In this document: positions 43,347 to 59,407 of the stretch, in pieces
Layout of the letters: each line of letters starts with the position of its first letter
Numbering within the stretch: position 1 is the first letter of the stretch
Origin: an uncultured virus (IMG/VR IMGVR_UViG_3300029305_011999)
Taxonomy: Duplodnaviria; Heunggongvirae; Uroviricota; Caudoviricetes
IMG/VR virus record: IMGVR_UViG_3300029305_011999
DNA length: 64,000 nt
Reading direction: 5' to 3' (one strand)
Made by a program: the position numbers and the translations under genes
The notes under the pieces: generated by a model
Database searches by the model: none
The model's input: only the letters and a program-made list of their open reading frames with translations
What the model was told of the DNA's origin: nothing

Positions 43347-45314
43347 ATGGAAATTCTCCCTTCTGAATATCAAAGCATAGAACTTTCGAGATACGAGAAA
43401 ATGTTTGTGCGCCACGCTATTTCCAATGATAGTTATGGCTTTCTTTTGCTGAAAGTAAATCCGACGATGATTGAAAACGAAAGTATGAATGTTGCGATTA
43501 CTTCCAGAGGGGTAGTATTTTTCAAGTTCTTTGAGGATTTTTCAGATTCTTCTCTCTTTGGGACAACGATGCAGGCGTATGCCCAATTCGTGTATCCTAC
43601 CGCACAGAAAATCATCGCTGAAAAGCTGCTTGGAAACAAATCCATTTCCGAAAATGGCACGACTCTTAAATTCCCCATCAACATTGTCCACGTATTCCCC
43701 AGTCTCAAAAGGGCTGATATTGAAAAGTTGAATTTGGCTGCTATTACAGATTTCGTAAAGAAGCAATGTCTTTTTGCAGAAGAATTTTCTGAACTGAGAC
43801 AGGGCTTTGGAAGCGTAATGGACAGATTGCTGGATAATTCTCTTTTGCCTGTGTCCGCAACACCGATGCAGATTTCAGATATGAATGTAAACTCCGTTAT
43901 GCAGAGAATCGCACCGGAGTATGTTACCGTCCGTGTCGCTTGTGTTGCTAACGCAGAAACGACTCCCGGAGTTGATAGCGAACTTCTTGTGGTCGATGAA
44001 AATGACGTTGTTGTAAGAGCCTTCCGATTGGATAAGGAACAAATCAATATTGTCAATCGTATCAGTAAGGATGACCCTAACCAGTTGATTTTGGCTTGTG
44101 CCGGTTCGGGTAAGAGTGTTCTCCTCATATCCAAGTGTTTTAAGGCTGCACAGATGAACCCCAATAAGAAGTTCTTAATAACCTGCCGAAACGAGAACTT
44201 ACATTCCTTGTACACTTGGTTCATCGACCGTGCCGGTCTCCGTGAGAAAAATGTGGAGTGTATGACATTCCATACCCTTTGCAAGAAACTCCTTGAAAAG
44301 AACGGCTTTATCGCCAGATATGGAGACTTCGATGGGTGGGTTGCTTCTGCGATTGATAAATTGAACCAAGGCAAAATCCAGGAGCGTTACTACGGTATTT
44401 TCATTGATGAAGTTCAAGCCTTTGAGCCAGAGTGGTATAAATTCTGCTTTAATATGCTTGAAAACAAGGACACAAAAGACCACATCTTTGTTATCTGCGG
44501 CGATAAGACCCAGCGTTTGGATAAGTTGAAAAAGCGTGGTCAAGCTCCTTGGCAGGTTGGCGAAGGCTATCCGAGTTATAGAGGCGGTAATAAGAACATT
44601 CGCATTGAAAAGAATTACCGCAACTGTATCGAAATCAACGAATACATAAACAGATATGTCTCCAATGCCAAGCAATATCTATATGATATTCAAGAGGATT
44701 ACGAGATTGACCCCGATATGTTCCTACGAGGACAAGCTGTTTTCCACGGCGAAGGAGTGAAATATATTCAGTTGCCTATTAAAAAGGCAAGTTGCGAAAT
44801 TGATACCATTATTCAAGCCATCAACAAGATACACGACGAGAACGAAATCCCGTATGATGAAATCGCCGTAATTATGTATCAAGGGAAGTACAGGAAAAAA
44901 ATCACAGGGTGGCTTGATAAGCAATATTATCTGCAACAGTCATTAGAAACGCGATTGCTTGCAGAGGACATCCCAAGCTGTCGCCTGTTTTCAACTGAGG
45001 CAGGTTGGCAAGACCACTTTGGAGAAACTGGTGGTGTACGACTCATAAAATTCCAATCAACACTTGGATTGGATTTCCGTGCCGCTATAATTTGTGGTTT
45101 GGTTCCTTTAGGGGAATATGACCAAATAAAGAATCCAAACTGGGACTCATTAAGGCAGGATGAAGATAAATATAATAACGCCATTGCCGCAACACAAAGT
45201 GCTGTTCAAAATCTCTATGTCGCTTGCACCAGAGCAAAGGAGATGTTATATATCATTGCTCCAGAAACGGAAAACGAATCAGTATTTATGAAAATGTTAA
45301 AAAATTCAATCTAA
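43347..45314 (+). CDS. SF1 (UvrD-like) helicase with long N-terminal domain
   Basis: ACAGSGKS, IFIDEVQ, GDKTQ, NYRN, GLDF, LYVACTRA. Confidence 0.88.
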   Translation: MEILPSEYQSIELSRYEKMFVRHAISNDSYGFLLLKVNPTMIENESMNVAITSRGVVFFKFFEDFSDSSLFGTTMQAYAQFVYPTAQKIIAEKLLGNKSISENGTTLKFPINIVHVFPSLKRADIEKLNLAAITDFVKKQCLFAEEFSELRQGFGSVMDRLLDNSLLPVSATPMQISDMNVNSVMQRIAPEYVTVRVACVANAETTPGVDSELLVVDENDVVVRAFRLDKEQINIVNRISKDDPNQLILACAGSGKSVLLISKCFKAAQMNPNKKFLITCRNENLHSLYTWFIDRAGLREKNVECMTFHTLCKKLLEKNGFIARYGDFDGWVASAIDKLNQGKIQERYYGIFIDEVQAFEPEWYKFCFNMLENKDTKDHIFVICGDKTQRLDKLKKRGQAPWQVGEGYPSYRGGNKNIRIEKNYRNCIEINEYINRYVSNAKQYLYDIQEDYEIDPDMFLRGQAVFHGEGVKYIQLPIKKASCEIDTIIQAINKIHDENEIPYDEIAVIMYQGKYRKKITGWLDKQYYLQQSLETRLLAEDIPSCRLFSTEAGWQDHFGETGGVRLIKFQSTLGLDFRAAIICGLVPLGEYDQIKNPNWDSLRQDEDKYNNAIAATQSAVQNLYVACTRAKEMLYIIAPETENESVFMKMLKNSI

Positions 45315-45332: not shown

Positions 45333-46958
45333 ATGGAACTCAAAGAAAATATAACAAAATTCACACATATGAGTATGCCTTCCTGGGGAGTAGGAACCTA
45401 TATAGGTTCTGAAGGGGATTACATTACAATTGATTTTGAAAATGTTGGTGTTAAGAAGTTTGGAAAAAATAGCATTAATACTATGTTAAAAGTTTTGGAT
45501 GACCCAAATACTCAGAAGCAAGCAACTACGCAACCCTCTACTGTTTATGTTCCGGTCAGCACACAAACCGGGTCCCTTATTCAGTATGACGGAGAAGAGG
45601 GCGGTATTGCGGGAAAAAATATAATAGAAGCGTTTGAAGGCAATGACTCTGTCATCTTTAACGAAACGTATATCATCATCGGTGAGCATACAGAAGCGTT
45701 GAAAATCCACGCTATGTACGACCTCACGATTATGGGGGATGTTACGGTTCAAGAATGTGTCATCAACGGTTCATTGACCATAATAGGCACCGCGCGTATT
45801 GCTAATTTAACTTGTTATAATGGGTTTATTTGCAAAGGAGATTTGTATTCTGACAAAATATATGTTGGTGGTGACATTATAGTTGACTCTATCGTATGTA
45901 ATGAATTGATTTGCGATAGCAATGTCACCATTCAGACAACCGCAAACATTAATCATACCGCAAAAATTGGAAAGAATATGGTAGCTTGCGAGGGCATTAT
46001 GGGTGCGGGTAAATTTTCCGCAACAAACGCTATTGCCAACGAATATTTTGAGTTTGACGGAGATTATGAGGGTAAAATACTTGAATTAGAGACGGATAAT
46101 ATCATCAGCGATTCTGCCCCTGTAAAAGTCGTGGCCGTGGAGACTATTGAAGAAATTATCAACCTGGCGAACCAAAAGCTCGTAGAAGAATATGGCAAAT
46201 GTCCTTCCTTAGACGAAGAAGCAATTATTGAGCATCTGCGTAATCTTGGCGCTATCGAAAGTGAGGAACTTCGAAACCTTCCGATAATTGAACCGTTGTT
46301 TTCAAGGCTTACCGACCTCTCCTATCAAGATAAAATAGAAACCATCGAAGAGTACCTAACCGTTCTTGTGGCACAGAGAGTTTTGCCGAGCGAAGTGTTC
46401 TCGTATGAGTCCATTGACCACATCGGTAAATTGTTTCTTCCGAAAGTGCAGAACGAAATGGAAGAATTATCTTTTGAGCCGACGTCCATTGGACAGTTTG
46501 CTAATGTTCTTTCTATGGCTGTACGGTTTGAAGAGGATCTCTCTCCAGATTGGGAATTGCTGATGGATAAAATATTTGAATCTGTCGGTCTCAAATATTC
46601 TACGGTTAGCTCTATGATTGGCAGAAACAAGCACAAAAAATCTGCAGAACCAGTAGTTGATGATGGATCTGAAGTGAAAATTGTAAGCGCTGATGAGCAA
46701 CAAGAACTTGCACCAGTCGTTTCTCGCATAAAAAAAGCTGATTTCCTTGCGAAGAAACTCAGCCATACTGGGAAGAAGTTTGGTTTAACGGATGTTGAGC
46801 TTGAACGCTTGGCAACTATTAAAATTCGTACATTTGACGACTTGGCGAAAGCCTCTGATGCTACCTTGACAAAGGTGTTTGGCAAAAAGTCTTTCTTGGC
46901 AAGTCATTTGATACAAACAAGAGATAAGATTATCGAAAGATTGGCGGATATGGAATAA
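45333..46958 (+). CDS. Unknown multidomain protein (Tudor-like N-terminus, beta-helix repeats, HhH/alphaCTD-like C-terminus)
   Basis: 541-aa ORF tightly inside the operon; domain guesses made by eye. Confidence 0.6.
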   Translation: MELKENITKFTHMSMPSWGVGTYIGSEGDYITIDFENVGVKKFGKNSINTMLKVLDDPNTQKQATTQPSTVYVPVSTQTGSLIQYDGEEGGIAGKNIIEAFEGNDSVIFNETYIIIGEHTEALKIHAMYDLTIMGDVTVQECVINGSLTIIGTARIANLTCYNGFICKGDLYSDKIYVGGDIIVDSIVCNELICDSNVTIQTTANINHTAKIGKNMVACEGIMGAGKFSATNAIANEYFEFDGDYEGKILELETDNIISDSAPVKVVAVETIEEIINLANQKLVEEYGKCPSLDEEAIIEHLRNLGAIESEELRNLPIIEPLFSRLTDLSYQDKIETIEEYLTVLVAQRVLPSEVFSYESIDHIGKLFLPKVQNEMEELSFEPTSIGQFANVLSMAVRFEEDLSPDWELLMDKIFESVGLKYSTVSSMIGRNKHKKSAEPVVDDGSEVKIVSADEQQELAPVVSRIKKADFLAKKLSHTGKKFGLTDVELERLATIKIRTFDDLAKASDATLTKVFGKKSFLASHLIQTRDKIIERLADME

Positions 46959-46982
46959 CTAACCGCAAGTGAGGTGAATAAA

Positions 46983-49900
46983 ATGGCAAATGTTAAAAGC
47001 ACAGCCCGTGAATTGCTGGCCAAAGAAATACTGCGGGGTTTCCAGGGCAAAATAACTGGCGATAACGCTGACTTCATTGTGAGCGAAAATCCAGAAAATC
47101 GTTATTTTGTCGGTAAACTTTTGCCTGTGAACGATTCCCAAACATCGTCTTGGGGGTCTGATGTTTTCATCGAATCCATTGGCTCGGATTTCTATATCGC
47201 AAAAGATGAAATCGAGACAGCTCAGCTTGCTGTCCATCCAAAGGGTGACTTTTATTACAGAGCATACCCCACCCTGGAACAGCAAAGAGCAGCTATGCTC
47301 AAAAAGGCAAACGAACTGTTTGAAACGAGCTTTACAAACTTCGATGAGATCATCGAAAGATATACGGAAGACCCTTCCGCTTTCACAAAAGTAAAAGAAA
47401 AACTCGTTCCAGTATATAAGAAAGTTCAGTTGCATCGCAGCGACTTTACTCTCATCTTTACACTGAGCGAGTTGCTTCGTGGCAATCCGCAGTACGGTTA
47501 TGCCGATGCAAGCCACGAACAAAACAGGCAGCTTGAGCAATTTCTTAACGACCTCCAGAGCTTGATTTGGGAGGACGAGAATTGCTATACCCTTGAACTC
47601 TATGAAAAGACGACAATCAAGGATTTGCTGACGGAAGATGACTATAAGAAATTCATAAAGAAAAATCAGAAACAAGGCACTCCGATTCGTCAAAATTGGA
47701 ATGTCTATATTGACATTACCATCAAACTTATTAAGGATAGATATTTGGTTTCCGTCGCCCTGGTCAATGGTTCGCAGGTTCAATCAAATGGTGTAACCCA
47801 CAAATCCAACAAGAAATCGGATGATAAGCCCACGATTGAAACGCTCTTTAATTCTGGCATGGAAATAGAACTTGTGGGAGCCTCTTTTTCACCGATAGAG
47901 CTGGATTTCTTTGCTGATGATTACAAGTACAACAGTTGCCAAAAGGCTGTTGGTAATAACTGCTCTGTTGAGTACCACGAAGAAACGAACACCATTACAA
48001 CAAATCATCTTCCTACTTTCGTCCAGAAGCGATTGCTCACTAATGATGAACTGGCGGTTTCATTTCAATCTTTGATTGATGCTCCGGTTGCGACACTAAA
48101 GGACATCCACCGGAAGATGCTCGCAGAGCACCGTAAATGGGAACGCAAATTCGAAGAAAAGAAACCTACTCTTTCTCCTGTCGGCATCAAAAATATGCAG
48201 GAAGAAATTGACGAGTTTGCACGAGAAATTCGTCGTTTTGAGTTTGGTATAGAGGTCATCAACGACTATCCGATTATTATGAAAAGTTTCGTGAATATGA
48301 ATCGGACTTTCTTGAAAACTTCCAAAAAGTACAGCACTTGGAGATTGTTCCAGATTGTATTTATCGTTTCTCTCGTACCGGATATTGCTGCGTGTGATGA
48401 AGATGTACTGCTTGACTCGCAAAAGGCTCAGACCACACTCAACGAAGTATCGCTTCTGTATTTCCCTACGGGCGGTGGTAAAACTGAAGCCTTTCTTGGT
48501 GTGCTAATTTTTAATCTATTCTTTGATAGATACCGTGGCAAGGAATGTGGTGTAACCGCTATCCTCAGATACCCGTTAAGACTTCTCTCGGTACAGCAGG
48601 TTCAGCGTTTGGCTAATGTTTTGGCACAAGCTGAGCTGATAAGACGTGCTGATATAGCTATTTCACGAACAGAAGAATTTTCTCTCGGCTATTTCGTTGG
48701 TGATGCAAACACCCCCAACAAAATCGAGAAGAAAGATGTAATCAAATATCGTACCCGTTCGCAAGAAGCGATGGACGAGGAACGTATTATTGATATTTGT
48801 CCGTTCTGCGGCAGGCAAACGGTTCACTTGAAGTTTGATGAGGACTCCTATCGCTTGGTTCACTATTGTGACAATGCGGAATGTCCGTCGAATGGCGTTC
48901 TTCCTATTTATATGGTTGACTACGAAATCTATCGTTATCTGCCATCTGCAATTATTAGCACAGTTGATAAGCTCGCCATTTTAGGAAACAATCCGAGCTT
49001 TAGAAATATCCTTTCCGGTGCAACGCATAGATGCCCGAAACACGGTTTTACCAGTACGACAAAGTGTATGGTAGATAGAGAGTTCTGCAACGTGGATGTC
49101 TCTGATTTTGAAGAAATCGAGATGTATGACCCTGCTCCTACTCTGTTTATTCAAGACGAGTTGCATTTGATTCGTGAAAGCTTGGGTACATACGCTTCGC
49201 ATTATGAGTCCTTCATCGACTATTTTGTAAAGAACGTCTCTCCGTCTCGCAGACCCATTAAAACAATCGGTGCAACGGCAACAATTTCCTCCTATGCAAC
49301 GCAGATTTCTCAGTTGTATAGTAAAGACCCGATTCGCTTTCCTTGCGCCTCTCCCGACTTGAAACGCAACTTCTATTCTTACATTGAAGAAGATGATACA
49401 CAGCGTTTGATTATGGGTTATGCTCCGTATGGAAAAGCAATTATTAACTCCGTTGTTTACTCGTTGAAGTATATGCGTGAGGTAGTATTTGATTATGTAC
49501 AGAACCCCGAAAAGGTTTTGGCTATCCCCGGTATTGGCATTGATACCGTTGAGGATGCGCTTGAAATACTGAAGGACTACTGGATTTTTCTTGAATACAA
49601 CAATGTAAAAAGAGACGGCAACAACGTTGAAGGCGCTCTTGAAACTCCTATCAACGTACAGCTACGTCAAGCAGGGATAACTCCGTTCAACACGAGAAAA
49701 ATGACCGGTGACGAGACCTTCCAAGATGTTCGTGAAGTGCTTTCCAAAGTCGAGACGAATGACGATGTTTTCAATGGTGTTAACCTTATTGTAGCAACAT
49801 CAATGATTTCTCACGGTGTTGACGCAGACCGCTTTAATATTATGTTCTTCTATGGAATGCCCGGTAATACCGCTGAATATATCCAGGCATACAGTAGAAC

Positions 49901-50420
49901 CGGCAGACGTCACTCCAGTATCGTTATTGATATTATGCGTCCCTCCAGAGAGACCGACCAGAGCTATCTGAAGAACTTCGTTAATTTCCACGAGTTTAAG
50001 GACATTATGGTTGAGTCTGTCCCTATCAACCGTTGGGCTACCAAAGCCATTGATTGCACTTTGCCGGGTATCTTTACAGGGTTGCTCTTAACCAAGTATG
50101 ACCCCGAACTTCAATACTCCTGCGGTTCTCAGTTCTTTATGAACAACATAAAGAAAGCGATTTCCGGAGGCTATTTGGATGTTGCTACTGTGACCAACGA
50201 ATTGAAAATGGCTTACGGGTGTACCATAGCCGGACAAGTAAACGAGATAGGCAATCAGTATAAAGCAAAAATTGAAGCCTTCGTTGAAGATGTCTTTGAA
50301 AGAATCGTCGATAAGAACTGGGAGCGAGAAAATATCTTCGCCGGATTTGAACTTATGGGCTATCATATTATGAATAGCTTACGAGATACCGACACTCAGT
50401 TGATTATCGAACTTGAATAA
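46983..50420 (+). CDS. DrmA-like SF2 helicase
   Basis: WRLFQ, FPTGGGKTEA, RYPLRLLS.QQ, CPFC, STVDK, QDELHL, ATAT, ATSMISHGVD, EYIQAYSRTGR; GAGGTG SD before the ATG at 46983. Confidence 0.88.
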   Translation: MANVKSTARELLAKEILRGFQGKITGDNADFIVSENPENRYFVGKLLPVNDSQTSSWGSDVFIESIGSDFYIAKDEIETAQLAVHPKGDFYYRAYPTLEQQRAAMLKKANELFETSFTNFDEIIERYTEDPSAFTKVKEKLVPVYKKVQLHRSDFTLIFTLSELLRGNPQYGYADASHEQNRQLEQFLNDLQSLIWEDENCYTLELYEKTTIKDLLTEDDYKKFIKKNQKQGTPIRQNWNVYIDITIKLIKDRYLVSVALVNGSQVQSNGVTHKSNKKSDDKPTIETLFNSGMEIELVGASFSPIELDFFADDYKYNSCQKAVGNNCSVEYHEETNTITTNHLPTFVQKRLLTNDELAVSFQSLIDAPVATLKDIHRKMLAEHRKWERKFEEKKPTLSPVGIKNMQEEIDEFAREIRRFEFGIEVINDYPIIMKSFVNMNRTFLKTSKKYSTWRLFQIVFIVSLVPDIAACDEDVLLDSQKAQTTLNEVSLLYFPTGGGKTEAFLGVLIFNLFFDRYRGKECGVTAILRYPLRLLSVQQVQRLANVLAQAELIRRADIAISRTEEFSLGYFVGDANTPNKIEKKDVIKYRTRSQEAMDEERIIDICPFCGRQTVHLKFDEDSYRLVHYCDNAECPSNGVLPIYMVDYEIYRYLPSAIISTVDKLAILGNNPSFRNILSGATHRCPKHGFTSTTKCMVDREFCNVDVSDFEEIEMYDPAPTLFIQDELHLIRESLGTYASHYESFIDYFVKNVSPSRRPIKTIGATATISSYATQISQLYSKDPIRFPCASPDLKRNFYSYIEEDDTQRLIMGYAPYGKAIINSVVYSLKYMREVVFDYVQNPEKVLAIPGIGIDTVEDALEILKDYWIFLEYNNVKRDGNNVEGALETPINVQLRQAGITPFNTRKMTGDETFQDVREVLSKVETNDDVFNGVNLIVATSMISHGVDADRFNIMFFYGMPGNTAEYIQAYSRTGRRHSSIVIDIMRPSRETDQSYLKNFVNFHEFKDIMVESVPINRWATKAIDCTLPGIFTGLLLTKYDPELQYSCGSQFFMNNIKKAISGGYLDVATVTNELKMAYGCTIAGQVNEIGNQYKAKIEAFVEDVFERIVDKNWERENIFAGFELMGYHIMNSLRDTDTQLIIELE

Positions 50421-50433
50421 GGAGGTGAACAGA

Positions 50434-52314
50434 ATGAGTTCTAAACAGCAGATGAAACGAGGAAAAAACCAATCCTTGTATAAGTACCTTCCCGAAACCT
50501 GGATAGATTTCTCTGTTCGTGGCAAAGAGCGTAAACAGTACATCGCAAAGGTTTTGAGATGGAATAGCGAGAAGCTCGATGGCATCAACGCCAAGCGCCT
50601 TATCAGAACTGTAAATGCTTCTGTTCGCTCTTTTGAAAACCAATGTCCTACTCCGGGTCCAATAAAGCCTACAGTTGGATTTAGCGCAGAATTAAATAAG
50701 GATAACTGTGACGTTTTGACTCCAAAGGCTTCCGAAGAAGAAAGAGGTATTGTCGCTCAGATTAGTCCTCTGACTTTCTACTGCAAGCTCTGTAACAAGG
50801 TGTATCAGTTCAGCAGCGAGGAAGAATATCAAAAACGTCGCTATTGCACAAATCCCGAATGTCACCACGCAGAGCTGGCTCAATTCCGTCAGATTTATTT
50901 CTGCAAATGCGGTTATGCGACAGACAGGCATAATCCTCGATGTCCGGAGCACGGCTATCAGTATGTAAAGTGGTATGGCAACTTTGATTTTGTCTGCACG
51001 AAATGTAAAAGACCTATCCCGATGCAGGTAAAATGTCCTGTGTGTGGTGATATGCTTAGACCTAAAGTTGCTCTTGACCCTGCACAGTTTTTCGTATTCA
51101 GTTTGAGTCTTATCGACTTGATTGACGAAAAGTTGGAGAACTTTATCTCTGAAACAGAATACGGACCCTATATTACCTTCGCATATTGGCTCGGATTGAT
51201 AAGCAAAGAGGAACTTAATGAAATCATCAAGAACGGAATTGTATCTGACCCCGATGCGTACCAAAAGGTATATGACCAGATGTATACGGTAATGTTTGCG
51301 GCGTTCAAAAACGAGACCGCCGCAGCTACAGCCGCTAAAACAGCAGCCGACCAACAATGCGGTAATCGCTTCAACGATATTGTCAACGAGTTGAAAACCA
51401 AGATTTTCACTACCGAAGGCGATTTGTCCAGTATTGCGGAGCGCATCCTTGAGTACGATTTGGTTACACGACTTGATGATGTTTCGGATTTGGCTTCTGC
51501 GGTTGACGTTGCCCGTTTACTTAATACTAACGCCAATCCAGAACAGTATGCTCAAATCGCAGAGCGTTTCGGAATTAAGAGTGCCAGAGTATGTGATAGA
51601 ATCCCCTTTGTTTCCTGCTCCTATGGATACACGAGAGTGGAATCCGAATGGAAAGAGGGCGTACAGCTCCACGCACTCAAAGAAGAAAAGCCTGGGCGTA
51701 AAAACATTTACGCTACCAAGCTGAATACCGAAGGCGTACTGTTTGAGTTCGATAGAAAAAAGATAATTGAATGGCTGCTTGCCAATCAATTTATCACAAC
51801 AGAAGAAGCTCCGAACCTGGAGTCCGAGGAAGAAATCAAAATTTGGTTCTTGAATAACATCAAGCCAAGTCTTATTCATCCTTTCTCCACTATTGATGAG
51901 ACCGCAAGCAAGGAAACTTACTATGTGTATCGGCTCATTCATTCGCTTTCACACCTGCTTATCCGTGCTGCCGCTGATATTGGTGGTTTGGGTAAGGATT
52001 CATTGTCGGAATACATTTTCCCCGGCGTTCCTGCAGTTCTGATTTATTGTCAAAACTCGCAAGGTTTCAACTTGGGTTCTTTGTTTAACACCTTTGAAGC
52101 ATACTTCGATAAGTGGATGAACAAAGCATACACAAGCGCACAGAAGTGTATTTTTGACCCAATTTGTATAGAACGGCAAAAAGCCTGTACGGGATGTTTG
52201 TTTGTGAACGAGGTCTCGTGCCAACATTTCAATAAGGATTTGGACAGAGCCTTGGTTGTAGGTCACGTTGACCGTGAAACACAACGAAAGACAACGGGCT
52301 TTTGGGAGGATTAA
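50434..52314 (+). CDS. DrmB-like DUF1998 (MrfA-type Zn-binding) protein
   Basis: Multiple CxxC; HSLSHLLIR, SLSEYIF, CIFDPIC...ACTGC...EVSC..FN..LDR; directly after the DrmA-like gene with AAGGAGGTG SD. Confidence 0.85.
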   Translation: MSSKQQMKRGKNQSLYKYLPETWIDFSVRGKERKQYIAKVLRWNSEKLDGINAKRLIRTVNASVRSFENQCPTPGPIKPTVGFSAELNKDNCDVLTPKASEEERGIVAQISPLTFYCKLCNKVYQFSSEEEYQKRRYCTNPECHHAELAQFRQIYFCKCGYATDRHNPRCPEHGYQYVKWYGNFDFVCTKCKRPIPMQVKCPVCGDMLRPKVALDPAQFFVFSLSLIDLIDEKLENFISETEYGPYITFAYWLGLISKEELNEIIKNGIVSDPDAYQKVYDQMYTVMFAAFKNETAAATAAKTAADQQCGNRFNDIVNELKTKIFTTEGDLSSIAERILEYDLVTRLDDVSDLASAVDVARLLNTNANPEQYAQIAERFGIKSARVCDRIPFVSCSYGYTRVESEWKEGVQLHALKEEKPGRKNIYATKLNTEGVLFEFDRKKIIEWLLANQFITTEEAPNLESEEEIKIWFLNNIKPSLIHPFSTIDETASKETYYVYRLIHSLSHLLIRAAADIGGLGKDSLSEYIFPGVPAVLIYCQNSQGFNLGSLFNTFEAYFDKWMNKAYTSAQKCIFDPICIERQKACTGCLFVNEVSCQHFNKDLDRALVVGHVDRETQRKTTGFWED

Positions 52315-52317
52315 GTT

Positions 52318-53982
52318 ATGGCAGTAATGCACCCGGTTGATATTGAAAATTATGATTATACGCCGACAGAAAAAGAGATGTACTATGCTTTGAAGGAGCA
52401 GCTTCCCGATAAGTACCAAGTATTCTATTCTGTCCGCTGGTTTGAGACGGTTGATAATAAGAGAATTGACAGCGAGAGCGATTTTCTGATTTTTGACCCG
52501 TCATTTGGCTTCATCACCATTGAAGTAAAGGGCGGAACCGGGATTACTGTCGATGACGGAAAGTGGACACTTATTGAGGATTACAGCCCCACAAACTCCA
52601 GTAGCAGAGAGTTAAAATGCAGCCCATACGAGCAGGCAGAAAAAAGTATGCGGCATTTTAGAAACTACTTTGTGTCTGAGTTCAATCAGAACTATAATGG
52701 CGTTTATGGCTTTGCTGTAGCTTTCCCTCGCTATGCTATAAGCTCACAGTTGGCGCAGGATGCTCCACCCGAAACAACAATCGACTTAAACGATATGCTG
52801 TCTCTGCGTGAGAAAATCAATCAAATCTTCCACTACTGGAAGAACAAACGGAATATAACCATTCCTTTTTCCGCTGAACAGCGCAACCGCTTCTTGACCG
52901 CAATCAATAAGCAGATTTCTATGTCTGCTGCCGCAGGTGCTTTGATTCCTATTAAGGAAAAGGAGTTTTCAAAGATAGATTTCGTTCAAGACTCGATTCT
53001 CGATTGCTTGCACAATTACCGGCAGGCACAGATTGTCGGAGGAGCTGGAACGGGCAAGACATTCATCGGCATTAAGAAGGCTGTTCGTGACACTTTGGAT
53101 AATAAGCGAGTATTGTTTACCTGCTGCAATGAGGAGCTTGCCGCCTTCGTAAAATCTAAGTTGGCGCAGTATCCTAAGATTGACGTGCTTACATATGCTG
53201 AGCTGATGAAAAAACTTTTAGGTGATGTGTACGACAATCTCCCGGCAAACCCGAACGGTAACAAAAGTTGCTTTGAATATATGGACCAAGTTCCTGTTGA
53301 ACAGAAATACGACTCCATCATTGTTGATGAGGCGCAGGATTTTGATATTGATATGGGCTTGGCTGTGAGAAGTCTTTTGGTCGATGATAGTACATCGTCG
53401 CTTTATGTGTTCTACGATAAGAACCAAAATGTTTTTGAAATGGATTTTGAAAATGCGTTCGCCATTGATGCCCCGCCGTATGTGTTGCGGTATAACATCC
53501 GAAACACGGGCAGCATCTATCAATGCGCCGTTGAACGGACGAACCTGGGACACGATACTGTAGCAAACAACATTGTCGGCGTTCATCCAGAAATCCATAA
53601 TTATTCTAAACCGTCGCAAGCGGTGAAGGCACTTAGCTTGATTGTTAATCGCCTGGTGCAAAAAGAATTTGTGCCAGCCGAATCCATAGTCATAGTTTCC
53701 GACACATCCTATGAAAACTCCATTCTTGCAGGGGAGGAACGTATAGGAGCTTATAACCTTGTGTTTAAGCACTATAAGGATGTCGCTGAAGATGAAATAT
53801 GCTTCAAAACTGCAGAAGAATTTAAGGGACTGGAATCCAACGTTGTAATTTATTTGACACACGAATTTACTAATCTTCCGTCCTCGACAACAGATAATAG
53901 AAAGGAATATGTTGCTATCACTCGTGCAAGGTACTATCTCTATGTGCTGAACACGAAGTGCAAGGCAGCGATTGGTGATTGA
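52318..53982 (+). CDS. NERD nuclease + SF1 helicase fusion
   Basis: ESDFLIF...IEVKGG, SPYEQA; GGAGTGKT, IIVDEAQD, FKGLE, YVAITRAR. Confidence 0.9.
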   Translation: MAVMHPVDIENYDYTPTEKEMYYALKEQLPDKYQVFYSVRWFETVDNKRIDSESDFLIFDPSFGFITIEVKGGTGITVDDGKWTLIEDYSPTNSSSRELKCSPYEQAEKSMRHFRNYFVSEFNQNYNGVYGFAVAFPRYAISSQLAQDAPPETTIDLNDMLSLREKINQIFHYWKNKRNITIPFSAEQRNRFLTAINKQISMSAAAGALIPIKEKEFSKIDFVQDSILDCLHNYRQAQIVGGAGTGKTFIGIKKAVRDTLDNKRVLFTCCNEELAAFVKSKLAQYPKIDVLTYAELMKKLLGDVYDNLPANPNGNKSCFEYMDQVPVEQKYDSIIVDEAQDFDIDMGLAVRSLLVDDSTSSLYVFYDKNQNVFEMDFENAFAIDAPPYVLRYNIRNTGSIYQCAVERTNLGHDTVANNIVGVHPEIHNYSKPSQAVKALSLIVNRLVQKEFVPAESIVIVSDTSYENSILAGEERIGAYNLVFKHYKDVAEDEICFKTAEEFKGLESNVVIYLTHEFTNLPSSTTDNRKEYVAITRARYYLYVLNTKCKAAIGD

Positions 53983-53983
53983 T

Positions 53984-56035
53984 ATGGCAAATATTTTACT
54001 TATCGAACCGGATTATAAATGTAAGCAGCCCCCGCTTGGGTTGATGAAAATATCGTTCTTCCACAAGAACATTCTGCACGATTATGTACGATTTACTAAG
54101 GGCAAACTCCCTGCAGCTCTTTCGGGGACAAAGTGGGACCGTGTATATGTAACATCTCTCTTTACCTTTGAATGGAAAGCAACGATTGAAGCTATTGAGT
54201 ACGCAAAGACCTTGGTTGACTCCATTGACAAAATCGTGGTTGGCGGTATTGCTGCTACAATGTTGCCCGACCAAATGTATGAGGAAACTGGTATCCGTCC
54301 GGTGTGCGGTCTTTTGAACGAGCCTGGAAAACTTGGTCTGCCCGGAGACGAGTGTATAGACCAGATAACGCCCGACTACTCTATGCTTGATGATGTCGAT
54401 TATGTTTATCCTTTCAACGATGCTTACTTTTTAAGCGCAACCAAAGGATGTGGCAACAAGTGTGGTTTTTGTGCTGTTCAAACCTTGGAGCCTAAGTTCA
54501 TCCCTTACATTGACATTAAGGACAGAATCAAAGCCATTGACGAGCAGTTCGGTCCCAAAAAGGACCTTATCCTTATGGATAACAATGTGCTTCGTTCGCC
54601 TCGCTTCAATGATATTATCGACGATATTATTGCCGCAGGTTTTGGCAAAGGTGCGACATATAAGAACCCCCGCACCGGCAAGACCGTGCAAAGGTACGTT
54701 GACTTTAACCAGGGACTTGATGCGCTGTTCTTGACCGAAGAAAAGGCAAAACGCCTTGGTGAAATTGCGCTTCGACCTGCACGAGTTGCTTTCGACCATA
54801 TTGAGGACAGGGACATTTACGAAAGAGCACTCCGTTTGTGTGCGAAGAACGGTGTTACTGAACTCTCCAACTATGTCCTCTATAATAGCGAAGATTTCGG
54901 CGGTAAGGGCAAAAAGTATCACGCTGATACTCCTGCAGATTTGTATGACCGAATGAAAATCACGCTGGACTTGCTTGATGAACTTAATGAAGAATATGGA
55001 CAGGAGCAGCGTATTGCAGCATTTTCGTTCCCAATGAGATATATTCCTTTGTCTGCTCACGAGCGTGGTTATGTAGGCTCTCAATGGAACGCCAAGTTCT
55101 TACGAGCAGTTCAGAGAATGCTCGTTCCCACACAAGGAAAGGGCGTTTGTAGCCGTAGCTTTTTTGAAGCGGACTTTGGCAAGAGTGCGGATGATTTCGT
55201 TCGTTATTTGAGTATGCCGGAGAAGCTGATTGCTGCCAGAGGTAAAATCAGCCCCACTTCCAGAGGTAAGTCCGGTGAAACCGAGGAACAGTTTATTCTC
55301 AGAAAGGCAAGCTGGGAGCGTGAACAAAAGAAAATCAAAATGTGGAACTCCCTGTATGCTCAGCTCGGCACCGAGAAAGATGATTTCATCAATCTGATTG
55401 GAGATAACGAATACCTCCCCGAAAAGGTTTTAGGTATTTCCTCCACCATACAGAGAAAGCTCTACATTCTCTATTTGACTACGCCCAGATTGGTTTCCTT
55501 CTTGGGTATGGTTGATAAAAACTCCCCGACCTACTCTATGGTCAAGGAGTTTATTGAGGTTGAGTGTCCCGAACTTTATATGGACGTTCTTGACCTTGTA
55601 TCTGAAAGCGAAGTTCAGCAAAATTATGTGTTTAAGAATTTTGTCGATTTCTTTGGACGCAAAGGTGTTCTTGATTTGCTGACCCGCTTGGAAAAAATAG
55701 ATTTTGCAGCCGATAAGCAGTTGACTAAATGGGATGTGCTCGCTAAGAAGGAAGGCATAGGTTACATCGACTTTGAGTTGATTCGTGTATATCGTCGCTT
55801 TGTGGATTTGGACGTTTTGACCGCTAAAGAGCACAAGGATGCAAAGAGACACATTATGGCTATGTCGATGACAGAACTTGCTTCTATCCTTGCGGAAAAC
55901 ATCGAAAAATTTGAGTCATTACTTCTTTCTGCTATAGACAATGAAAAAGGGCAAGCCGTACTGAAGAAGGTTACAAAGACAATCACAAACAACATTCAGT
56001 TCAAACTTGCGAACTTTTTAGGAGAAGAAGAATAA
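53984..56035 (+). CDS. Radical SAM enzyme with B12-binding-like N-terminus and C-terminal extension
   Basis: ILLIEP...PPLGLMKIS, VGGIAAT, KGCGNKCGFC (CxxxCxxC), LMDNN, VDFNQGLD, FPMRY. Confidence 0.88.
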   Translation: MANILLIEPDYKCKQPPLGLMKISFFHKNILHDYVRFTKGKLPAALSGTKWDRVYVTSLFTFEWKATIEAIEYAKTLVDSIDKIVVGGIAATMLPDQMYEETGIRPVCGLLNEPGKLGLPGDECIDQITPDYSMLDDVDYVYPFNDAYFLSATKGCGNKCGFCAVQTLEPKFIPYIDIKDRIKAIDEQFGPKKDLILMDNNVLRSPRFNDIIDDIIAAGFGKGATYKNPRTGKTVQRYVDFNQGLDALFLTEEKAKRLGEIALRPARVAFDHIEDRDIYERALRLCAKNGVTELSNYVLYNSEDFGGKGKKYHADTPADLYDRMKITLDLLDELNEEYGQEQRIAAFSFPMRYIPLSAHERGYVGSQWNAKFLRAVQRMLVPTQGKGVCSRSFFEADFGKSADDFVRYLSMPEKLIAARGKISPTSRGKSGETEEQFILRKASWEREQKKIKMWNSLYAQLGTEKDDFINLIGDNEYLPEKVLGISSTIQRKLYILYLTTPRLVSFLGMVDKNSPTYSMVKEFIEVECPELYMDVLDLVSESEVQQNYVFKNFVDFFGRKGVLDLLTRLEKIDFAADKQLTKWDVLAKKEGIGYIDFELIRVYRRFVDLDVLTAKEHKDAKRHIMAMSMTELASILAENIEKFESLLLSAIDNEKGQAVLKKVTKTITNNIQFKLANFLGEEE

Positions 56036-57540
56036 TGAGCAGCATAATAATTGGCAAACACACATTGGAGTCGCTTACATCCGGTATGTATTCTGATTCC
56101 TATGTGGTGTTTAGGGAATATATTCAGAACAGCGTGGACTCAATCGACGAAGCTATTCGTGCCGGGGTATTGCTCCCTGGTGCAGAGCAGATTTCAGTTC
56201 GATTGGCACCAACAGAAAATCAAATTGTAATTTATGATAATGGTCTTGGCATCCCTACAGCCGATGCCGAGAAAACACTTATCAGTATTGGTAACTCTAA
56301 AAAGTCCTCGGAAAGCTCTCGTGGTTTCCGTGGAATTGGTCGCTTGTCAGCTCTTAGCTATTGCCAACAACTAACATTTACTACTTCATTCAAAGGCGAG
56401 GGTGTTGCTACAAAAATAGTTATTGATGCATCCAAACTGTCGGAAGTGCTGGCAGACGATACGAAAGCTGATGTTACCGTCATAGATGTGCTTGAAAGCG
56501 TGTACACCGTATCCACTTTTTCTGAACGTGAGGATTCACATTATTTCTCTGTTCAGTTGGACGGCGTTGATGTGAACTCTAAACTTCTTTCGTGTGCAGA
56601 TGTTGAGGATTATTTGACTCAGAACGCCCCTGCTCCTTACAGTCCGGAATTTGTTTGGGGCAAGGAAATAACAAAGCGCCTCCAGAAAGAGGGCTTGGAA
56701 ATAAGTGTGTATAACATCTCATTGGAGTATGGTACGAAAGTAAAACCCATCTACAAACCGTATAAAGATGAGTTTATCGTGGACAAGGGCAGAAACATAA
56801 CTGATGTCGTACAGGACATTCAAATAATCAAGATTCCGAACGAGAGTGCAAACCTTACTGCTATCGGATGGCTCGCAAAGACGAACTATATGGGTAGCAT
56901 TTACGAAAAAGCAGTAAAAGGAATACGTCTGCGCAAAGGCAACATTTTGATTGGCGACCATCAGACATTGAACGTTGTCTTCAAGGATGCTCGTTTCAAC
57001 GGTTGGTCTATCGGTGAAATTTTCGCATTCGATAAGCAGCTTATTCCAAATGCCAGAAGGGATAACTTTGAAAAGAACCCCGCATACTTCTCCCTTTTTG
57101 AGCAACTTATGACGATTGCTGCAGGGATTACCAAAGAAATCCGAACTGCTTCCTTAAAGAGAAATACGACCCTTTCAAATGCGCTTGAGCAGCTCAATGC
57201 TACAGCCCAGCAAGCGGCTATCGCATTGGATGAAGGTGTTACCGGCGCACAAAAGGGGCTTATCACAAAGAAGCTCAAAGAAGCACAAACTGCCGTTTCT
57301 AATTCCACGGCAAATAGTGACTCGGAGCAATACTGCCAAGATATTGCCTTTGCAGAGTTGGATATGTTGATTGGAAAATTCAAGGGCACAACGAAGTACA
57401 AAGCTCTTAACACTATCGACAATCTGACAAACACAGAAAAGAAAATCCTTGAAAGAGTAATTCAAATTGTTGATTCGTTGGAAATTGAAAGTGCAGACGC
57501 CGTAATTGAGGCAATCTTAAACGAATTTTCTAACAAATAA
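56035..57540 (+). CDS. GHKL (Hsp90/MORC-like) ATPase, copy 2
   Basis: REYIQNSVD, DNGLGI, GFRGIGRL, RLRKGNILIG, LIPNARRDNFE; TAATG overlap with the radical SAM gene. Confidence 0.88.
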   Translation: MSSIIIGKHTLESLTSGMYSDSYVVFREYIQNSVDSIDEAIRAGVLLPGAEQISVRLAPTENQIVIYDNGLGIPTADAEKTLISIGNSKKSSESSRGFRGIGRLSALSYCQQLTFTTSFKGEGVATKIVIDASKLSEVLADDTKADVTVIDVLESVYTVSTFSEREDSHYFSVQLDGVDVNSKLLSCADVEDYLTQNAPAPYSPEFVWGKEITKRLQKEGLEISVYNISLEYGTKVKPIYKPYKDEFIVDKGRNITDVVQDIQIIKIPNESANLTAIGWLAKTNYMGSIYEKAVKGIRLRKGNILIGDHQTLNVVFKDARFNGWSIGEIFAFDKQLIPNARRDNFEKNPAYFSLFEQLMTIAAGITKEIRTASLKRNTTLSNALEQLNATAQQAAIALDEGVTGAQKGLITKKLKEAQTAVSNSTANSDSEQYCQDIAFAELDMLIGKFKGTTKYKALNTIDNLTNTEKKILERVIQIVDSLEIESADAVIEAILNEFSNK

Positions 57541-59393: not shown

Positions 59394-59407
59394 AGGATGG
59401 TGATAAC

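What the first reader, a model, noticed from the sequence alone, without database searches (positions are those of the whole stretch)
53984..56035. B12-type radical SAM enzyme in the position where a DNA-modifying enzyme would be expected
Seen: intact CxxxCxxC, a cobalamin-binding-like N-terminus and an uncharacterised C-terminal extension of over 250 aa. It starts 1 bp after the NERD-helicase stop and overlaps the second GHKL start (TAATG). Known: B12-dependent radical SAM enzymes methylate unactivated C or P centres, and viperin-type radical SAM enzymes make antiviral nucleotides. Inference: it may install an unusual self-mark on DNA or make a modified nucleotide or signal for the helicase-nuclease module.
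Basis: partly seen in the sequence, partly recalled or inferred. Interest (0 to 1): 0.78.

Follow-up and report, generated by a model that had tools for sequence, protein, structure and literature searches.

The report
Radical SAM enzyme in defence operon
An unnamed radical SAM enzyme sits, always beside DNA-handling defence genes and usually a GHKL ATPase, where related anti-phage systems carry their DNA methylase, so it probably puts a new kind of mark on DNA.

Summary
Window 53984-56035 (+) encodes a 683-aa protein with CxxxCxxC (C156/C160/C163), a Rossmann-like N-domain, a radical SAM core and a 254-aa all-helical C-terminal domain with no fold match. The start lies 1 bp after the NERD-helicase stop, and the stop overlaps the GHKL start (TAATG).

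The protein belongs to a large, unnamed family: 1198 clusters at 50% identity and at least 573 genomic loci in bacteria and archaea. It has no NCBIfam or PADLOC model. Its fold matches the Rossmann-plus-radical-SAM group (AprD4, MgmA, TsrM, OxsB, MiaB; Z 18-22), not viperin specifically (Z about 10).

Context across 80 genomic loci:
- 73 carry DNA-conflict partners.
- 52 have a GHKL ATPase immediately downstream.
- 33 have ParB/DndB-like proteins.
- The helicase-nuclease cassettes are interchangeable: DrmAB+NERD, ParB/PD-(D/E)xK/SNF2, PbeA/PbeC/DndE-like, and an archaeal DrmA-B-C-E.
- DNA methylase genes were seen near only 3 of the 80 (L006, L040, L054), two of them clearly parts of a neighbouring R-M system.

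Phages carry short solo copies, 8 of 25 of them within three genes of DNA methylases.

Best reading (about 0.5): a DNA-modifying self-marking enzyme, with the GHKL as its loader. Cobalamin use and the chemistry are untested. I found no paper describing the family.

The parts
40743..41723 (+). WYL/WCX transcriptional regulator at the head of the operon (BrxR/CapW-type defence regulator; that name is recalled, not tested)
   Evidence: Pfam WYL 1.7e-10 and WCX 3.7e-7; PADLOC WYL 2.3e-28. A WYL gene lies downstream of the GHKL instead in L001, L022 and L023.
41819..43339 (+). GHKL ATPase 1 (HATPase_c_3, MORC/MutL-like), first gene of the conserved 8-gene block
   Evidence: Pfam HATPase_c_3 6.7e-12. 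An orthologue (44-73% identity) heads the block in 5 of 5 other genomes searched.
43347..45314 (+). UvrD/GajB-like SF1 helicase
   Evidence: Pfam UvrD-helicase and UvrD_C; PADLOC C3a187 3.8e-22 and GajB 1.5e-12. Present in 13 of 80 loci, always together with DrmAB.
45333..46958 (+). Unknown 541-aa protein conserved within the block
   Evidence: No family above threshold. Homologues in 13 of 80 loci, always between the UvrD-like gene and DrmA. Atlas returned only 'hypothetical protein'.
46974..50420 (+). DrmA-like (YprA-family) DEAD/DEAH helicase
   Evidence: PADLOC DrmA 7.8e-174. NCBIfam DISARM_DrmAS scores 376.7 bits, below its cut-off of 950.
50413..52314 (+). DrmB-like (DUF1998-type) partner of DrmA
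   Evidence: PADLOC DrmB 2.4e-58. NCBIfam DrmB_fam scores 94.6 bits, below its cut-off of 240.
52318..53982 (+). NERD nuclease fused to an SF1 helicase; candidate restriction effector
   Evidence: Pfam NERD 5.7e-10 plus helicase domains; PADLOC RTasNERD-Hel 1.2e-70. Lies immediately upstream of the radical SAM gene in 16 of 80 loci.
53984..56035 (+). The radical SAM protein, 683 aa: Rossmann-like N-domain (residues 1-~135), radical SAM core with a conserved post-core region (about 136-429), fast-evolving all-helical C-terminal domain (430-683)
   Evidence: phrog_9298 7.4e-33; pLDDT 95.6, pTM 0.90.
54449..54472 (+). Codons for C156-x3-C160-x2-C163, the [4Fe-4S]/SAM cluster motif
   Evidence: Translation; conservation.
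55271..56032 (+). C-terminal all-alpha domain (residues 430-683), without a known fold; proposed specificity or adaptor domain
   Evidence: Model pLDDT 91. Best of 48161 chains is Z 7.5. Identity to relatives falls far faster here than in the core, e.g. L003 86/88/60% and L007 56/66/23% for N-domain/core/C-domain.
56035..57540 (+). GHKL ATPase 2, translationally coupled partner of the radical SAM gene
   Evidence: Pfam HATPase_c_3 1.3e-12. A GHKL gene is immediately downstream on the same strand in 52 of 80 loci; gaps range from -62 to +33 and the commonest is -4. Bergerat-fold ATP-binding motifs are invariant in 49 sequences.

Best explanation
The protein is the modification component of a multi-gene, DISARM-related defence system. 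It is a radical SAM enzyme that acts on DNA and installs a covalent self-mark, most likely a C-alkyl (methyl) group or another adduct that ordinary SAM methylases cannot make. It probably works together with the GHKL ATPase encoded right behind it, acting as an ATP-driven DNA clamp or loader. The fast-evolving helical C-terminal domain would act as the specificity or docking element. The helicase-nuclease genes upstream (DrmA/DrmB, NERD-helicase, UvrD-like helicase, GHKL-1) would then scan DNA and attack DNA that lacks the mark. The WYL regulator would control expression. Shown here: the gene, its motifs and its fold class; the family's size; its near-exclusive placement in DNA-conflict operons; its coupling to a GHKL gene; the exchange of partner cassettes; and the absence of a methylase from these systems. 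Inferred: that DNA is the substrate, that the mark protects self, that the GHKL loads the enzyme, and the chemistry. Cobalamin use is open.
For: Fold and motifs:
- CxxxCxxC is conserved.
- The two-domain fold matches AprD4 (Z 21.8, rmsd 3.6, 350 aligned), MgmA (21.3), MtaB (20.2), MiaB (19.6), TsrM (19.2), OxsB (19.1), CysS (18.5) and RimO (18.4). Most of these put methyl or methylthio groups on unactivated atoms of macromolecules or metabolites; AprD4, a diol dehydratase, and OxsB are exceptions.

Context in 80 genomic loci spanning many phyla and two archaeal lineages:
- 73 of 80 have DNA-conflict partners within 7 genes.
- A GHKL gene lies within 7 genes in 54 of 80 and immediately downstream in 52 of 80.
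- ParB/DndB-like proteins occur in 33 of 80.

The gene occupies the slot of the modification gene:
- L031 reads DrmA-DrmB-DrmC(PLD)-DrmE-rSAM, with no methylase in the 10 kb downstream.
- Eight loci read PbeA-PbeC(CxC ABC ATPase)-DndE-like-rSAM. PMC10853773 (abstract and passages read) describes this DndD/CxC-DndE core as a DNA-scanning apparatus that recruits phosphorothioation or cytosine methylases.

Methylases are missing from these systems:
- The 8-gene block of the window has no DNA methylase, and its conserved flanks in 5 other genomes have none either.
- DNA methylase genes were seen near the gene in only 3 of the 80 loci. L006 and L040 have one on the gene's own strand, and L054 has one on the opposite strand. 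L040's belongs to a complete neighbouring DpnII R-M system.

The rSAM-GHKL pair moves between partner cassettes:
- Within one strongly supported Bacillota clade (SH-aLRT 100) the contexts are DrmAB 15, ParB/SNF2 4 and F16 1.
- The ParB/SNF2-linked L004 is sister to the window's subclade.

Phages carry the enzyme without its defence partners:
- At least 450 viral contigs encode relatives.
- Of 79 kept, only 14 have a GHKL nearby; most of the rest are about 300-aa solo forms.
- 8 of 25 solo forms examined have a DNA methylase within 3 genes.
- In Bacteroides phage BI-TP1 the gene lies among three DNA methylases and a PAPS reductase. This is the pattern of orphan protective modification enzymes.

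The C-terminal domain diverges much faster than the catalytic core, as target-recognition parts of modification enzymes do.
Against: - No modification, DNA binding or activity has been observed; every functional step rests on gene context and fold.
- The nearest structural relatives act on small molecules, proteins and tRNA. None acts on DNA.
- The best match, AprD4, is a dehydratase that lacks cobalamin, so neither methylation nor B12 use follows from the fold.
- Many helicase-nuclease defence systems need no self-mark, so the lack of a methylase is also compatible with a modification-independent system.
- The phage neighbourhood count (8 of 25) has no control, and the short phage forms are only 26-34% identical.
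- Pfam Radical_SAM is below its cut-off for this protein (20.2 bits against 29.5).
- 7 of 80 loci show none of the partner families.
Confidence: 0.5

Rival explanations
1. The radical SAM enzyme is an effector rather than a self-marker. Loaded by the GHKL clamp onto invading DNA, or triggered by the helicases, it damages or derivatises foreign DNA by radical chemistry and so blocks its replication.
For: It has the same DNA-centric context as the main reading. The systems lack a methylase. Several cassettes have no strong nuclease other than small PD-(D/E)xK or ParB-like proteins.
Against: Most viral copies are solo, without GHKL or cassette partners, and lie in phage replication or methylase regions. 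That is hard to explain for a weapon against phage DNA. Nuclease effectors (NERD, HKD/PLD, PD-(D/E)xK, HEPN, PIN) are already present in most cassettes.
Confidence: 0.15
2. The enzyme modifies a protein or RNA rather than DNA. It might mature or switch the neighbouring GHKL ATPase or a helicase, as MgmA and RimO modify proteins. Alternatively it might alter tRNA, as MiaB and MtaB do, to shut down translation.
For: MgmA, MtaB, MiaB and RimO are among the best structural matches (Z 18-21). The gene is tightly coupled to the GHKL gene in 52 of 80 loci. HEPN and PIN RNase-type domains occur in some loci.
Against: 26 of 80 genomic loci, and 65 of the 79 viral loci kept, have no GHKL gene nearby, so the GHKL cannot be the general substrate. 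The N-domain lacks the three cysteines of methylthiotransferases, and no TRAM domain was found. The recurrent partners (DndB/ParB-like, DndE-like, CxC ABC ATPase, SNF2, DrmAB) are all DNA-binding machines.
Confidence: 0.13
3. The enzyme makes a modified nucleotide or small signal, either viperin-like or a precursor that other proteins insert into DNA, rather than acting on DNA itself.
For: Radical SAM enzymes in defence that are known so far act on nucleotides: prokaryotic viperins (recalled) and Ophion OpnA, whose action on nucleotides is proposed rather than shown (bioRxiv 10.1101/2025.09.30.679545, passages read). Phage copies lie in replication and nucleotide-metabolism regions. One locus has a phosphoribosyltransferase downstream (L026).
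Against: The viperin match covers the generic core only (Z about 10, residues 146-387). No PADLOC model hit the protein. No conserved nucleotide kinase, transglycosylase or insertion enzyme accompanies the gene. Pairing with DNA clamps and scanners argues for action on the polymer.
Confidence: 0.12
4. The radical SAM-GHKL pair is a separate two-gene unit that only happens to lie next to other defence systems in islands, with no functional link to DrmAB or the NERD helicase.
For: The pair is modular, occurs with at least five different cassettes, and in a few loci stands without a recognised cassette (for example L029, L030, L072).
Against: The gene order of the 8-gene block is kept at 44-73% identity in 5 of 5 genomes with unrelated flanks. 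Start and stop codons abut or overlap on both sides of the gene. In the Pbe-type and archaeal DISARM-type loci the enzyme is the last gene of the cassette and has no GHKL.
Confidence: 0.1

Closest known systems
DISARM (DrmA/DrmB-based defence, classes 1 and 2)
   Same: It has DrmA-like and DrmB-like genes (PADLOC 7.8e-174 and 2.4e-58). It is a large co-directional operon with extra helicases and a nuclease. In the archaeal relative L031 the layout is DrmA-DrmB-DrmC-DrmE plus one further enzyme gene.
   Different: The window has no DrmC (PLD), no DrmD or DrmE, and no DrmMI/MII methylase. Both Drm proteins score below NCBIfam's cut-offs. In their place it carries a NERD-helicase, a UvrD-like helicase, two GHKL ATPases, an unknown 541-aa protein and the radical SAM enzyme. 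None of the YprA-family system classes in bioRxiv 10.1101/2025.09.15.676423 mentions a radical SAM or GHKL gene (passages read; its supplements are closed).
DndD/CxC ABC ATPase-DndE anchored systems (Dnd phosphorothioation; PbeABCD)
   Same: Relatives of the enzyme follow PbeA, PbeC and a DndE-like gene in 8 loci, and DndB-family genes precede it in 11 loci. PMC10853773 (abstract and passages) reports that this core recruits alternative modification enzymes: phosphorothioation or cytosine methylases.
   Different: No DndA or DndC and no methylase is present. A radical SAM enzyme as the recruited partner is not mentioned in the main text of that paper, which uses the term only for DndC. The window itself has no DndB, DndD or DndE gene.
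Rossmann-plus-radical-SAM enzymes: cobalamin-dependent TsrM, MgmA, OxsB, CysS and TokK; cobalamin-free AprD4; methylthiotransferases MiaB, MtaB and RimO
   Same: Residues 1-~430 have the same two-domain architecture, with Z 18.4-21.8 and Foldseek E 1e-8 to 1e-4. The cluster loop aligns with MgmA by sequence (E 0.0066).
   Different: Identity is only 10-18%. There was no sequence hit to any solved structure with the single protein. It has no auxiliary-cluster cysteines and no TRAM domain. It carries an extra conserved region (about 300-430) and a helical domain of its own. None of the relatives is known to act on DNA or sits in defence operons (the latter is recalled, not tested).
Prokaryotic viperins and Ophion OpnA (radical SAM enzymes in anti-phage defence)
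   Same: It belongs to the radical SAM superfamily and has a defence context.
   Different: Viperin lacks the N-terminal Rossmann domain and matches only the core (Z about 10). No PADLOC model hit the protein. OpnA is described as viperin-related and works with PHP and PRTase partners, which are absent here.
MORC/paraMORC GHKL ATPases of restriction-modification loci (Iyer, Abhiman and Aravind 2008; recalled, and seen only as a reference)
   Same: A HATPase_c_3 ATPase with intact ATP-binding motifs sits next to helicase, nuclease and modification-type genes.
   Different: The partner here is a radical SAM enzyme rather than a DNA methylase. A full-text search for 'radical SAM' with MORC and restriction-modification gave 3 papers; the radical SAM passages read in all three do not concern this family.

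Membership tests
Radical SAM superfamily | CxxxCxxC motif that binds the [4Fe-4S] cluster | tested here: met
   C156/C160/C163. C160 and C163 are invariant and C156 is at least 90% conserved in 50 sequences. The motif occurs in 78 of 81 locus ORFs.
Radical SAM superfamily | Partial TIM-barrel core fold | tested here: met
   Residues about 140-390 superpose on dozens of radical SAM cores at Z 10-22. The model has pLDDT 95.6.
Radical SAM superfamily | Pfam PF04055 at its gathering score | tested here: not met
   This protein scores 20.2 bits against a cut-off of 29.5. The homologue in L016 reaches 31.4. The family is very divergent in sequence.
Radical SAM superfamily | Reductive cleavage of SAM | not testable with these tools
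   Needs anaerobic biochemistry.
Cobalamin-dependent (class B) radical SAM enzymes | N-terminal Rossmann-like cobalamin-binding domain | tested here: inconclusive
   The fold is present and aligns with TsrM, MgmA, OxsB and CysS (Z 18-21). It aligns equally well with cobalamin-free AprD4 (Z 21.8) and with methylthiotransferases (for AprD4). PF02310 did not hit this protein. It is found on 21% of members of one related Atlas cluster.
Cobalamin-dependent (class B) radical SAM enzymes | Bound cobalamin; production of both SAH and 5'-deoxyadenosine | not testable with these tools
   No cobalamin ligand is offered by the folding tools. Needs UV-vis, HPLC and turnover assays.
Methylthiotransferases (MiaB/RimO/MtaB) | Three conserved cysteines in the N-domain for an auxiliary cluster | tested here: not met
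   The only conserved cysteines in 50 sequences are C156, C160 and C163.
Methylthiotransferases (MiaB/RimO/MtaB) | C-terminal TRAM domain | tested here: not met
   No TRAM hit in Pfam. The C-terminal domain is all-helical.
Viperin-like radical SAM enzymes | Family-level sequence or fold match beyond the generic core | tested here: inconclusive
   No PADLOC or NCBIfam model hit at E<=0.01. Structural matches have Z about 10 over the core only, no better than unrelated radical SAM enzymes.
DISARM | DrmA and DrmB | tested here: met
   PADLOC DrmA 7.8e-174 and DrmB 2.4e-58, but both are below NCBIfam's curated cut-offs.
DISARM | DrmC (PLD nuclease) and DrmD or DrmE | tested here: not met
   No PLD, SNF2 or DrmE hit among the 13 operon proteins of the window.
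DISARM | DNA methyltransferase DrmMI or DrmMII | tested here: not met
   No methylase domain between 40743 and 60757, nor next to the block in 5 other genomes.
Dnd / PbeABCD (CxC ABC ATPase-DndE) systems | DndD- or CxC-type ABC ATPase with a DndE partner | tested here: not met
   Absent from the window. Present next to relatives of the enzyme in 8 of 80 loci.

The most novel reading that the evidence does not exclude
This family is a radical SAM, possibly cobalamin-dependent, DNA-modifying enzyme class that writes a previously unknown epigenetic mark: an alkyl group on an unactivated carbon of a base or sugar, or on the backbone phosphorus. It would serve as an interchangeable modification module for at least five architectures of defence system across bacteria and archaea. 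Phages would have captured its catalytic core as an orphan protective enzyme.
Probability: 0.4. Interest if true: 0.92.

Novelty: new variant of a known kind. Interest (0 to 1): 0.8.

Why it matters
Every modification-based defence known so far marks self DNA in one of three ways: ordinary SAM methylases, phosphorothioation, or 7-deazaguanine insertion. A radical SAM enzyme in the same slot would mean a fourth chemistry of self-marking, probably at positions that nucleophilic methylases cannot reach. That would give a new natural DNA modification to look for in gut Bacillota and many environmental phyla.

The family is large: 1198 clusters at 50% identity, at least 573 genomic loci and at least 450 viral contigs. 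It is unnamed and absent from PADLOC and NCBIfam, so these systems are currently missed by defence-finding tools. It also offers a testable role for the MORC-like GHKL ATPases of prokaryotic conflict systems, as loaders of a modification enzyme.

Cultured carriers exist for experiments: Clostridium mobile MSJ-11, Chakrabartyella piscis BP5G, Sphingomonas arantia, Marivibrio halodurans, Anaerobacterium chartisolvens and Lachnospiraceae KH1P17 (record titles).

Tried and rejected
- Complex prediction of the enzyme (residues 1-495) with GHKL-2 gave 'no answer' (score 0.00). This is neither for nor against binding.
- A single-sequence search of solved structures gave 0 hits at E<=1. The profile search gave only the cluster loop of MgmA (E 0.0066) and borderline RimO and MiaB.
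- The fold search of the C-terminal domain against 48161 chains gave a best Z of 7.5 over a 76-residue helical piece. That is below the level that means anything for helical bundles. No claim of a new fold is made.
- The search of earlier findings by sequence returned nothing.
- The window's own assembly is not held. The nearest virus record, G001 (18.7 kb), does not encode the enzyme, so it tells nothing about whether the island belongs to the prophage.
- The genes downstream of GHKL-2 (606 aa, 182 aa, zinc ribbon, GNAT) were considered as system parts and rejected: 0 of 80 loci carry homologues.
- I considered that the ~136-aa gene of the ParB/SNF2 cassette might be DndE-like. Its invariant D..PD..E-A-K pattern instead points to a PD-(D/E)xK nuclease. 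The planned profile comparison with the DndE-like family was not run.
- Atlas look-up of the unknown 541-aa protein gave only 'hypothetical protein'.
- Literature searches: 'radical SAM' with DISARM/DrmA, with GHKL and defense, with PbeA/phosphorothioat/DndD, with the ABC-ATPase classification title and DndE, with anti-phage/DNA modification/cobalamin, with DndB, and with MORC and restriction-modification. None turned up a description of this family. Only selected hits of these lists were opened.
- Two papers that might bear on it could not be read because they are not held: PMC7544218 and PMC3194920. bioRxiv supplements are closed, so supplementary tables of the YprA preprint may list such operons.
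Full report
**Observation.** The + strand ORF ending at 56035 is listed from a TTG at 53972. The ATG at 53984 gives a 683-aa protein that begins MANILLIE, as its homologues do. The NERD-helicase gene ends with TGA at 53980-53982, one base before that ATG. The stop TAA at 56033-56035 shares its last A with the ATG of the next gene, giving TAATG. The motif TKGCGNKCGFCAV supplies C156, C160 and C163.

**What the protein is.**
- Pfam sees only a sub-threshold Radical_SAM match (20.2 bits, cut-off 29.5, residues 152-235).
- NCBIfam and PADLOC see nothing.
- PHROGs matches residues 3-302 to phrog_9298, 'radical SAM domain protein' (7.4e-33).
- No solved structure is found by sequence.
- The family is nevertheless large. 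3856 proteins had E<=1e-3 among 7999 scored candidates. There are 1198 clusters at 50% identity with E<=1e-3, and 226 with E<=1e-30.
- The names I saw in sources are only 'hypothetical protein' or 'radical SAM protein'.
- In 50 diverse members, residues 1-~425 are conserved, with C160 and C163 invariant and C156 at least 90% conserved. No other cysteine is conserved.

**Structure.** An AlphaFold2 model from 85 sequences has pLDDT 95.6 and pTM 0.90.
- Residues 1-~430 match the two-domain enzymes in which a Rossmann-like domain precedes the radical SAM barrel: AprD4 Z 21.8 (rmsd 3.6, 350 residues), MgmA 21.3, MtaB 20.2, MiaB 19.6, TsrM 19.2, OxsB 19.1, CysS 18.5 and RimO 18.4. Viperins and other single-domain members reach only Z about 10 over the core.
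- Rows within 1 Z unit are ties, so the fold does not separate cobalamin-dependent relatives from AprD4. A 2026 review says AprD4 does not bind cobalamin (PMC12931638, passages read).
- 'B12-type' is therefore a description of the fold, not a finding.
- Residues 430-683 fold as 14 helices (pLDDT 91) and have no meaningful match among 48161 chains (best Z 7.5).
- This domain evolves much faster than the rest. Identity to the window's protein for N-domain/core/C-domain is 97/96/84% in L001, 86/88/60% in L003, 81/80/50% in L004 and about 56/66/22% in ten further relatives.

**The window.** Positions 249-40165 on the minus strand are a prophage: two serine integrases, lysin, tail, capsid, portal, terminase, methylases, primase, helicase and repressor.

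From 40743 a co-directional operon follows, in this order:
1. WYL regulator
2. GHKL-1
3. UvrD-like helicase
4. unknown 541-aa protein
5. DrmA-like helicase
6. DrmB-like protein
7. NERD-helicase
8. the radical SAM enzyme
9. GHKL-2

These are followed by genes of 606 aa, 182 aa and 83 aa and a GNAT gene. No DNA methylase lies in the operon.

**Comparative context in genomes.** The 80 best cover Bacillota, Planctomycetota, Pseudomonadota, Nitrospirota, Chloroflexota, Acidobacteriota, Thermoplasmata and Thorarchaeota.

I called ORFs, matched them to the window's proteins and clustered the neighbours:
- A GHKL gene lies within 7 genes in 54 of 80 loci and immediately downstream on the same strand in 52. 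The gaps run from -62 to +33 bases and the commonest is -4.
- 33 of 80 loci have a ParB-like or DndB-family gene.
- 73 of 80 have at least one recurrent partner family.
- The 606-aa, 182-aa, zinc-ribbon and GNAT genes have homologues in 0 of 80 loci and are not part of the system.

The partners fall into interchangeable cassettes:
- **(A)** UvrD-like, 541-aa protein, DrmA, DrmB and NERD-helicase. This occurs in 13-16 loci, all in the Bacillota-type long form.
- **(B)** ParB-like, a ~136-aa protein with an invariant PD...EAK pattern (a small PD-(D/E)xK nuclease), an SNF2 helicase and a second ParB-like protein. This occurs in about 22 loci.
- **(C)** A PglW-like/RNAP-alpha-CTD protein, PbeA (4.5e-217), PbeC/CxC ABC ATPase (3.3e-168) and a DndE-like protein (dnd_assoc_4), then the enzyme without a GHKL. 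This occurs in 8 loci.
- **(D)** Two unknown proteins, a GHKL, the enzyme and a second GHKL. This occurs in 4 loci.
- **(E)** A DndB-family protein, in some loci fused to a HEPN domain, then the enzyme and a GHKL. DndB occurs in 11 loci.
- **One archaeal locus (L031)** reads DrmA, DrmB, DrmC (PLD), DrmE and then the enzyme. This is the class-2 DISARM order, with the enzyme where the methylase stands (the order is recalled). A DpnI gene follows, and there is no methylase in the 10 kb downstream.

Further points:
- GHKL-1 heads cassette A in 5 of 5 other genomes searched. In 4 of the 5, GHKL-2 lies about 13.5 kb downstream. So GHKL-1 to GHKL-2 is a conserved 8-gene block.
- The flanks of that block differ between genomes. 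They hold no DNA methylase next to it, only a RumA-type RNA methylase 1.5-4 kb away in 2 of 5.
- Across the 80 loci, DNA methylase genes were seen near the enzyme in L006, L040 and L054. L040's belongs to a complete DpnII R-M system next door, and L054's is on the opposite strand.
- Of the seven loci without clustered partners, L040 and L054 sit beside R-M or DndB genes, L021 has a helicase gene just upstream, and L026, L028, L046 and L048 gave no informative neighbours.
- No locus places the gene in a recognisable biosynthetic cluster.

**Modularity.** A quick maximum-likelihood tree of 79 sequences needs 28 context changes, where 6 is the minimum. The Bacillota long-form clade (SH-aLRT 100) holds DrmAB-linked (15), ParB/SNF2-linked (4) and type-D (1) members. 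The ParB/SNF2-linked L004 is sister to the window's subclade (the careful search did not finish). The C-terminal domain occurs in both A and B contexts. So the enzyme-GHKL pair moves as a unit between helicase-nuclease cassettes.

**Viruses.**
- Eight annotated phage records have relatives.
- In Marinitoga camini virus 1 the gene stands alone.
- In Bacteroides phage BI-TP1 a 305-aa form lies among three DNA methylases and a PAPS reductase.
- In IMG/VR at least 450 contigs encode relatives.
- Of the 79 kept, 14 carry a GHKL or a whole cassette, meaning defence cassettes on viral or proviral contigs. Most of the others are solo forms of about 300 aa that keep only the Rossmann and core domains.
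- Around 25 solo forms, 8 have a DNA methylase within three genes (10 of 146 neighbours) and one has a PAPS reductase. The other neighbours are replication genes.
- I ran no control for this count.

**GHKL partner.** In 49 GHKL partners the Bergerat ATP-binding residues are invariant (E28, N32, D35; D68-x-G70-x-G72; G97, G100, G102), so the ATPase should be active.

**Literature.** I found no description of this family.
- Ophion's radical SAM enzyme is viperin-related and has other partners (passages).
- The YprA-helicase preprint defines DISARM, Dpd, Druantia, ARMADA, BRIGADE and TALON without a radical SAM or GHKL component in its main text (passages).
- Rakesh, Aravind and Krishnan (PMC10853773; abstract, outline and passages) show that the DndD/CxC-DndE core is a DNA-scanning apparatus. 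It recruits phosphorothioation or cytosine methylases. They equate PbeABCD with the CxC system. They mention radical SAM only for DndC.

**Reading.** The constant element is the enzyme, usually with its GHKL. The variable elements are the translocases and nucleases. These systems lack a methylase, the enzyme stands in the methylase's place in two known architectures, and phages carry the bare catalytic part among their own methylases. The simplest account is that it is the modification enzyme and that its substrate is DNA.

The substrate cannot be the GHKL or any cassette protein, because 26 of 80 genomic loci and 65 of the 79 viral loci kept lack a nearby GHKL. The fast-evolving helical domain is a candidate for target choice or docking.

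The chemistry is open. The fold is shared with C-methylases and methylthiotransferases but also with a dehydratase, and the auxiliary-cluster cysteines and the TRAM domain of methylthiotransferases are absent. I put 0.5 on DNA self-marking. The rest is split among an anti-DNA effector, a protein or RNA modifier, a nucleotide or signal maker, and an unrelated neighbour.

**Limits.**
- Nothing here shows activity, DNA binding, cobalamin binding or a complex with the GHKL; the one complex job gave no verdict.
- Neighbour calls rest on my own simple ORF caller.
- The 80 genomic and 79 viral loci are the best-scoring subsets of larger hit lists.
- Some MAG assignments look doubtful (see 'noticed in passing').

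Noticed in passing
window 249-40165 (- strand): A complete-looking siphovirus-type prophage: two adjacent large serine recombinases (249-1832, 1825-3105), endolysin, tail genes, tape measure, capsid, protease, portal, TerL, amidoligase, a 776-aa methylase/primase-like fusion (25351-27681), a ParB-methylase fusion (27659-28900), primase, helicase, Sak4, Gam and a LexA/CI-like repressor (39545-40165) facing the defence operon. GC is about 0.47-0.50 in the phage body against 0.40-0.44 in the defence operon and in the integrase end. Whether the defence operon is prophage cargo was not settled.
   Followed up: partly
window 57573-60204 (+): Three genes after GHKL-2 (606 aa with a weak PriA 3'-DNA-binding-domain hit at 1.2e-3, 182 aa, and an 83-aa double zinc ribbon) have no family assignment and no homologue in any of the 80 related loci. 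They may be a separate, variable accessory or another defence gene.
   Followed up: partly
rSAM residues about 271-312 against 523-559 (window about 54794-54919 and 55550-55660): phmmer with the C-terminal domain alone also reported a short second match to the core region of the same proteins in many relatives. It may be an internal helical repeat or just helical composition. Unexplained.
   Followed up: no
L061 and L062: Two loci with identical radical SAM proteins and identical gene order (M17 peptidase, HolC, ValRS, then the ParB/SNF2 cassette) are filed under a Gammaproteobacteria MAG and a Nitrospira bin. This suggests a binning error or very recent transfer. Likewise L006, labelled Planctomycetales, nests inside the Bacillota clade.
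   Followed up: no
L077:7544-9883, L058:2195-4546: DndB-family proteins fused to a Swt1-like HEPN domain lie directly upstream of the radical SAM-GHKL pair. PIN_8 proteins take a similar place in L068, L072 and L078. RNase-type effectors in an otherwise DNA-centred system.
   Followed up: no
L047:12020-13681: A second, unrelated radical SAM gene (Radical_SAM_N2 plus Radical_SAM) lies two genes downstream of the family member in a Brocadia locus. A metallo-beta-lactamase-fold gene sits between DndB and the family member there.
   Followed up: no
L091:1009-2493 and L092:5124-6701: In 2 of 5 genomes the 8-gene block is inserted 1.5-4 kb downstream of a RumA-type (tRNA/rRNA U5) methyltransferase gene. 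This may be a recurrent insertion neighbourhood. In L093 the flank carries PcfJ/PcfK conjugative-element genes, and in L094 phage-like regulators.
   Followed up: no
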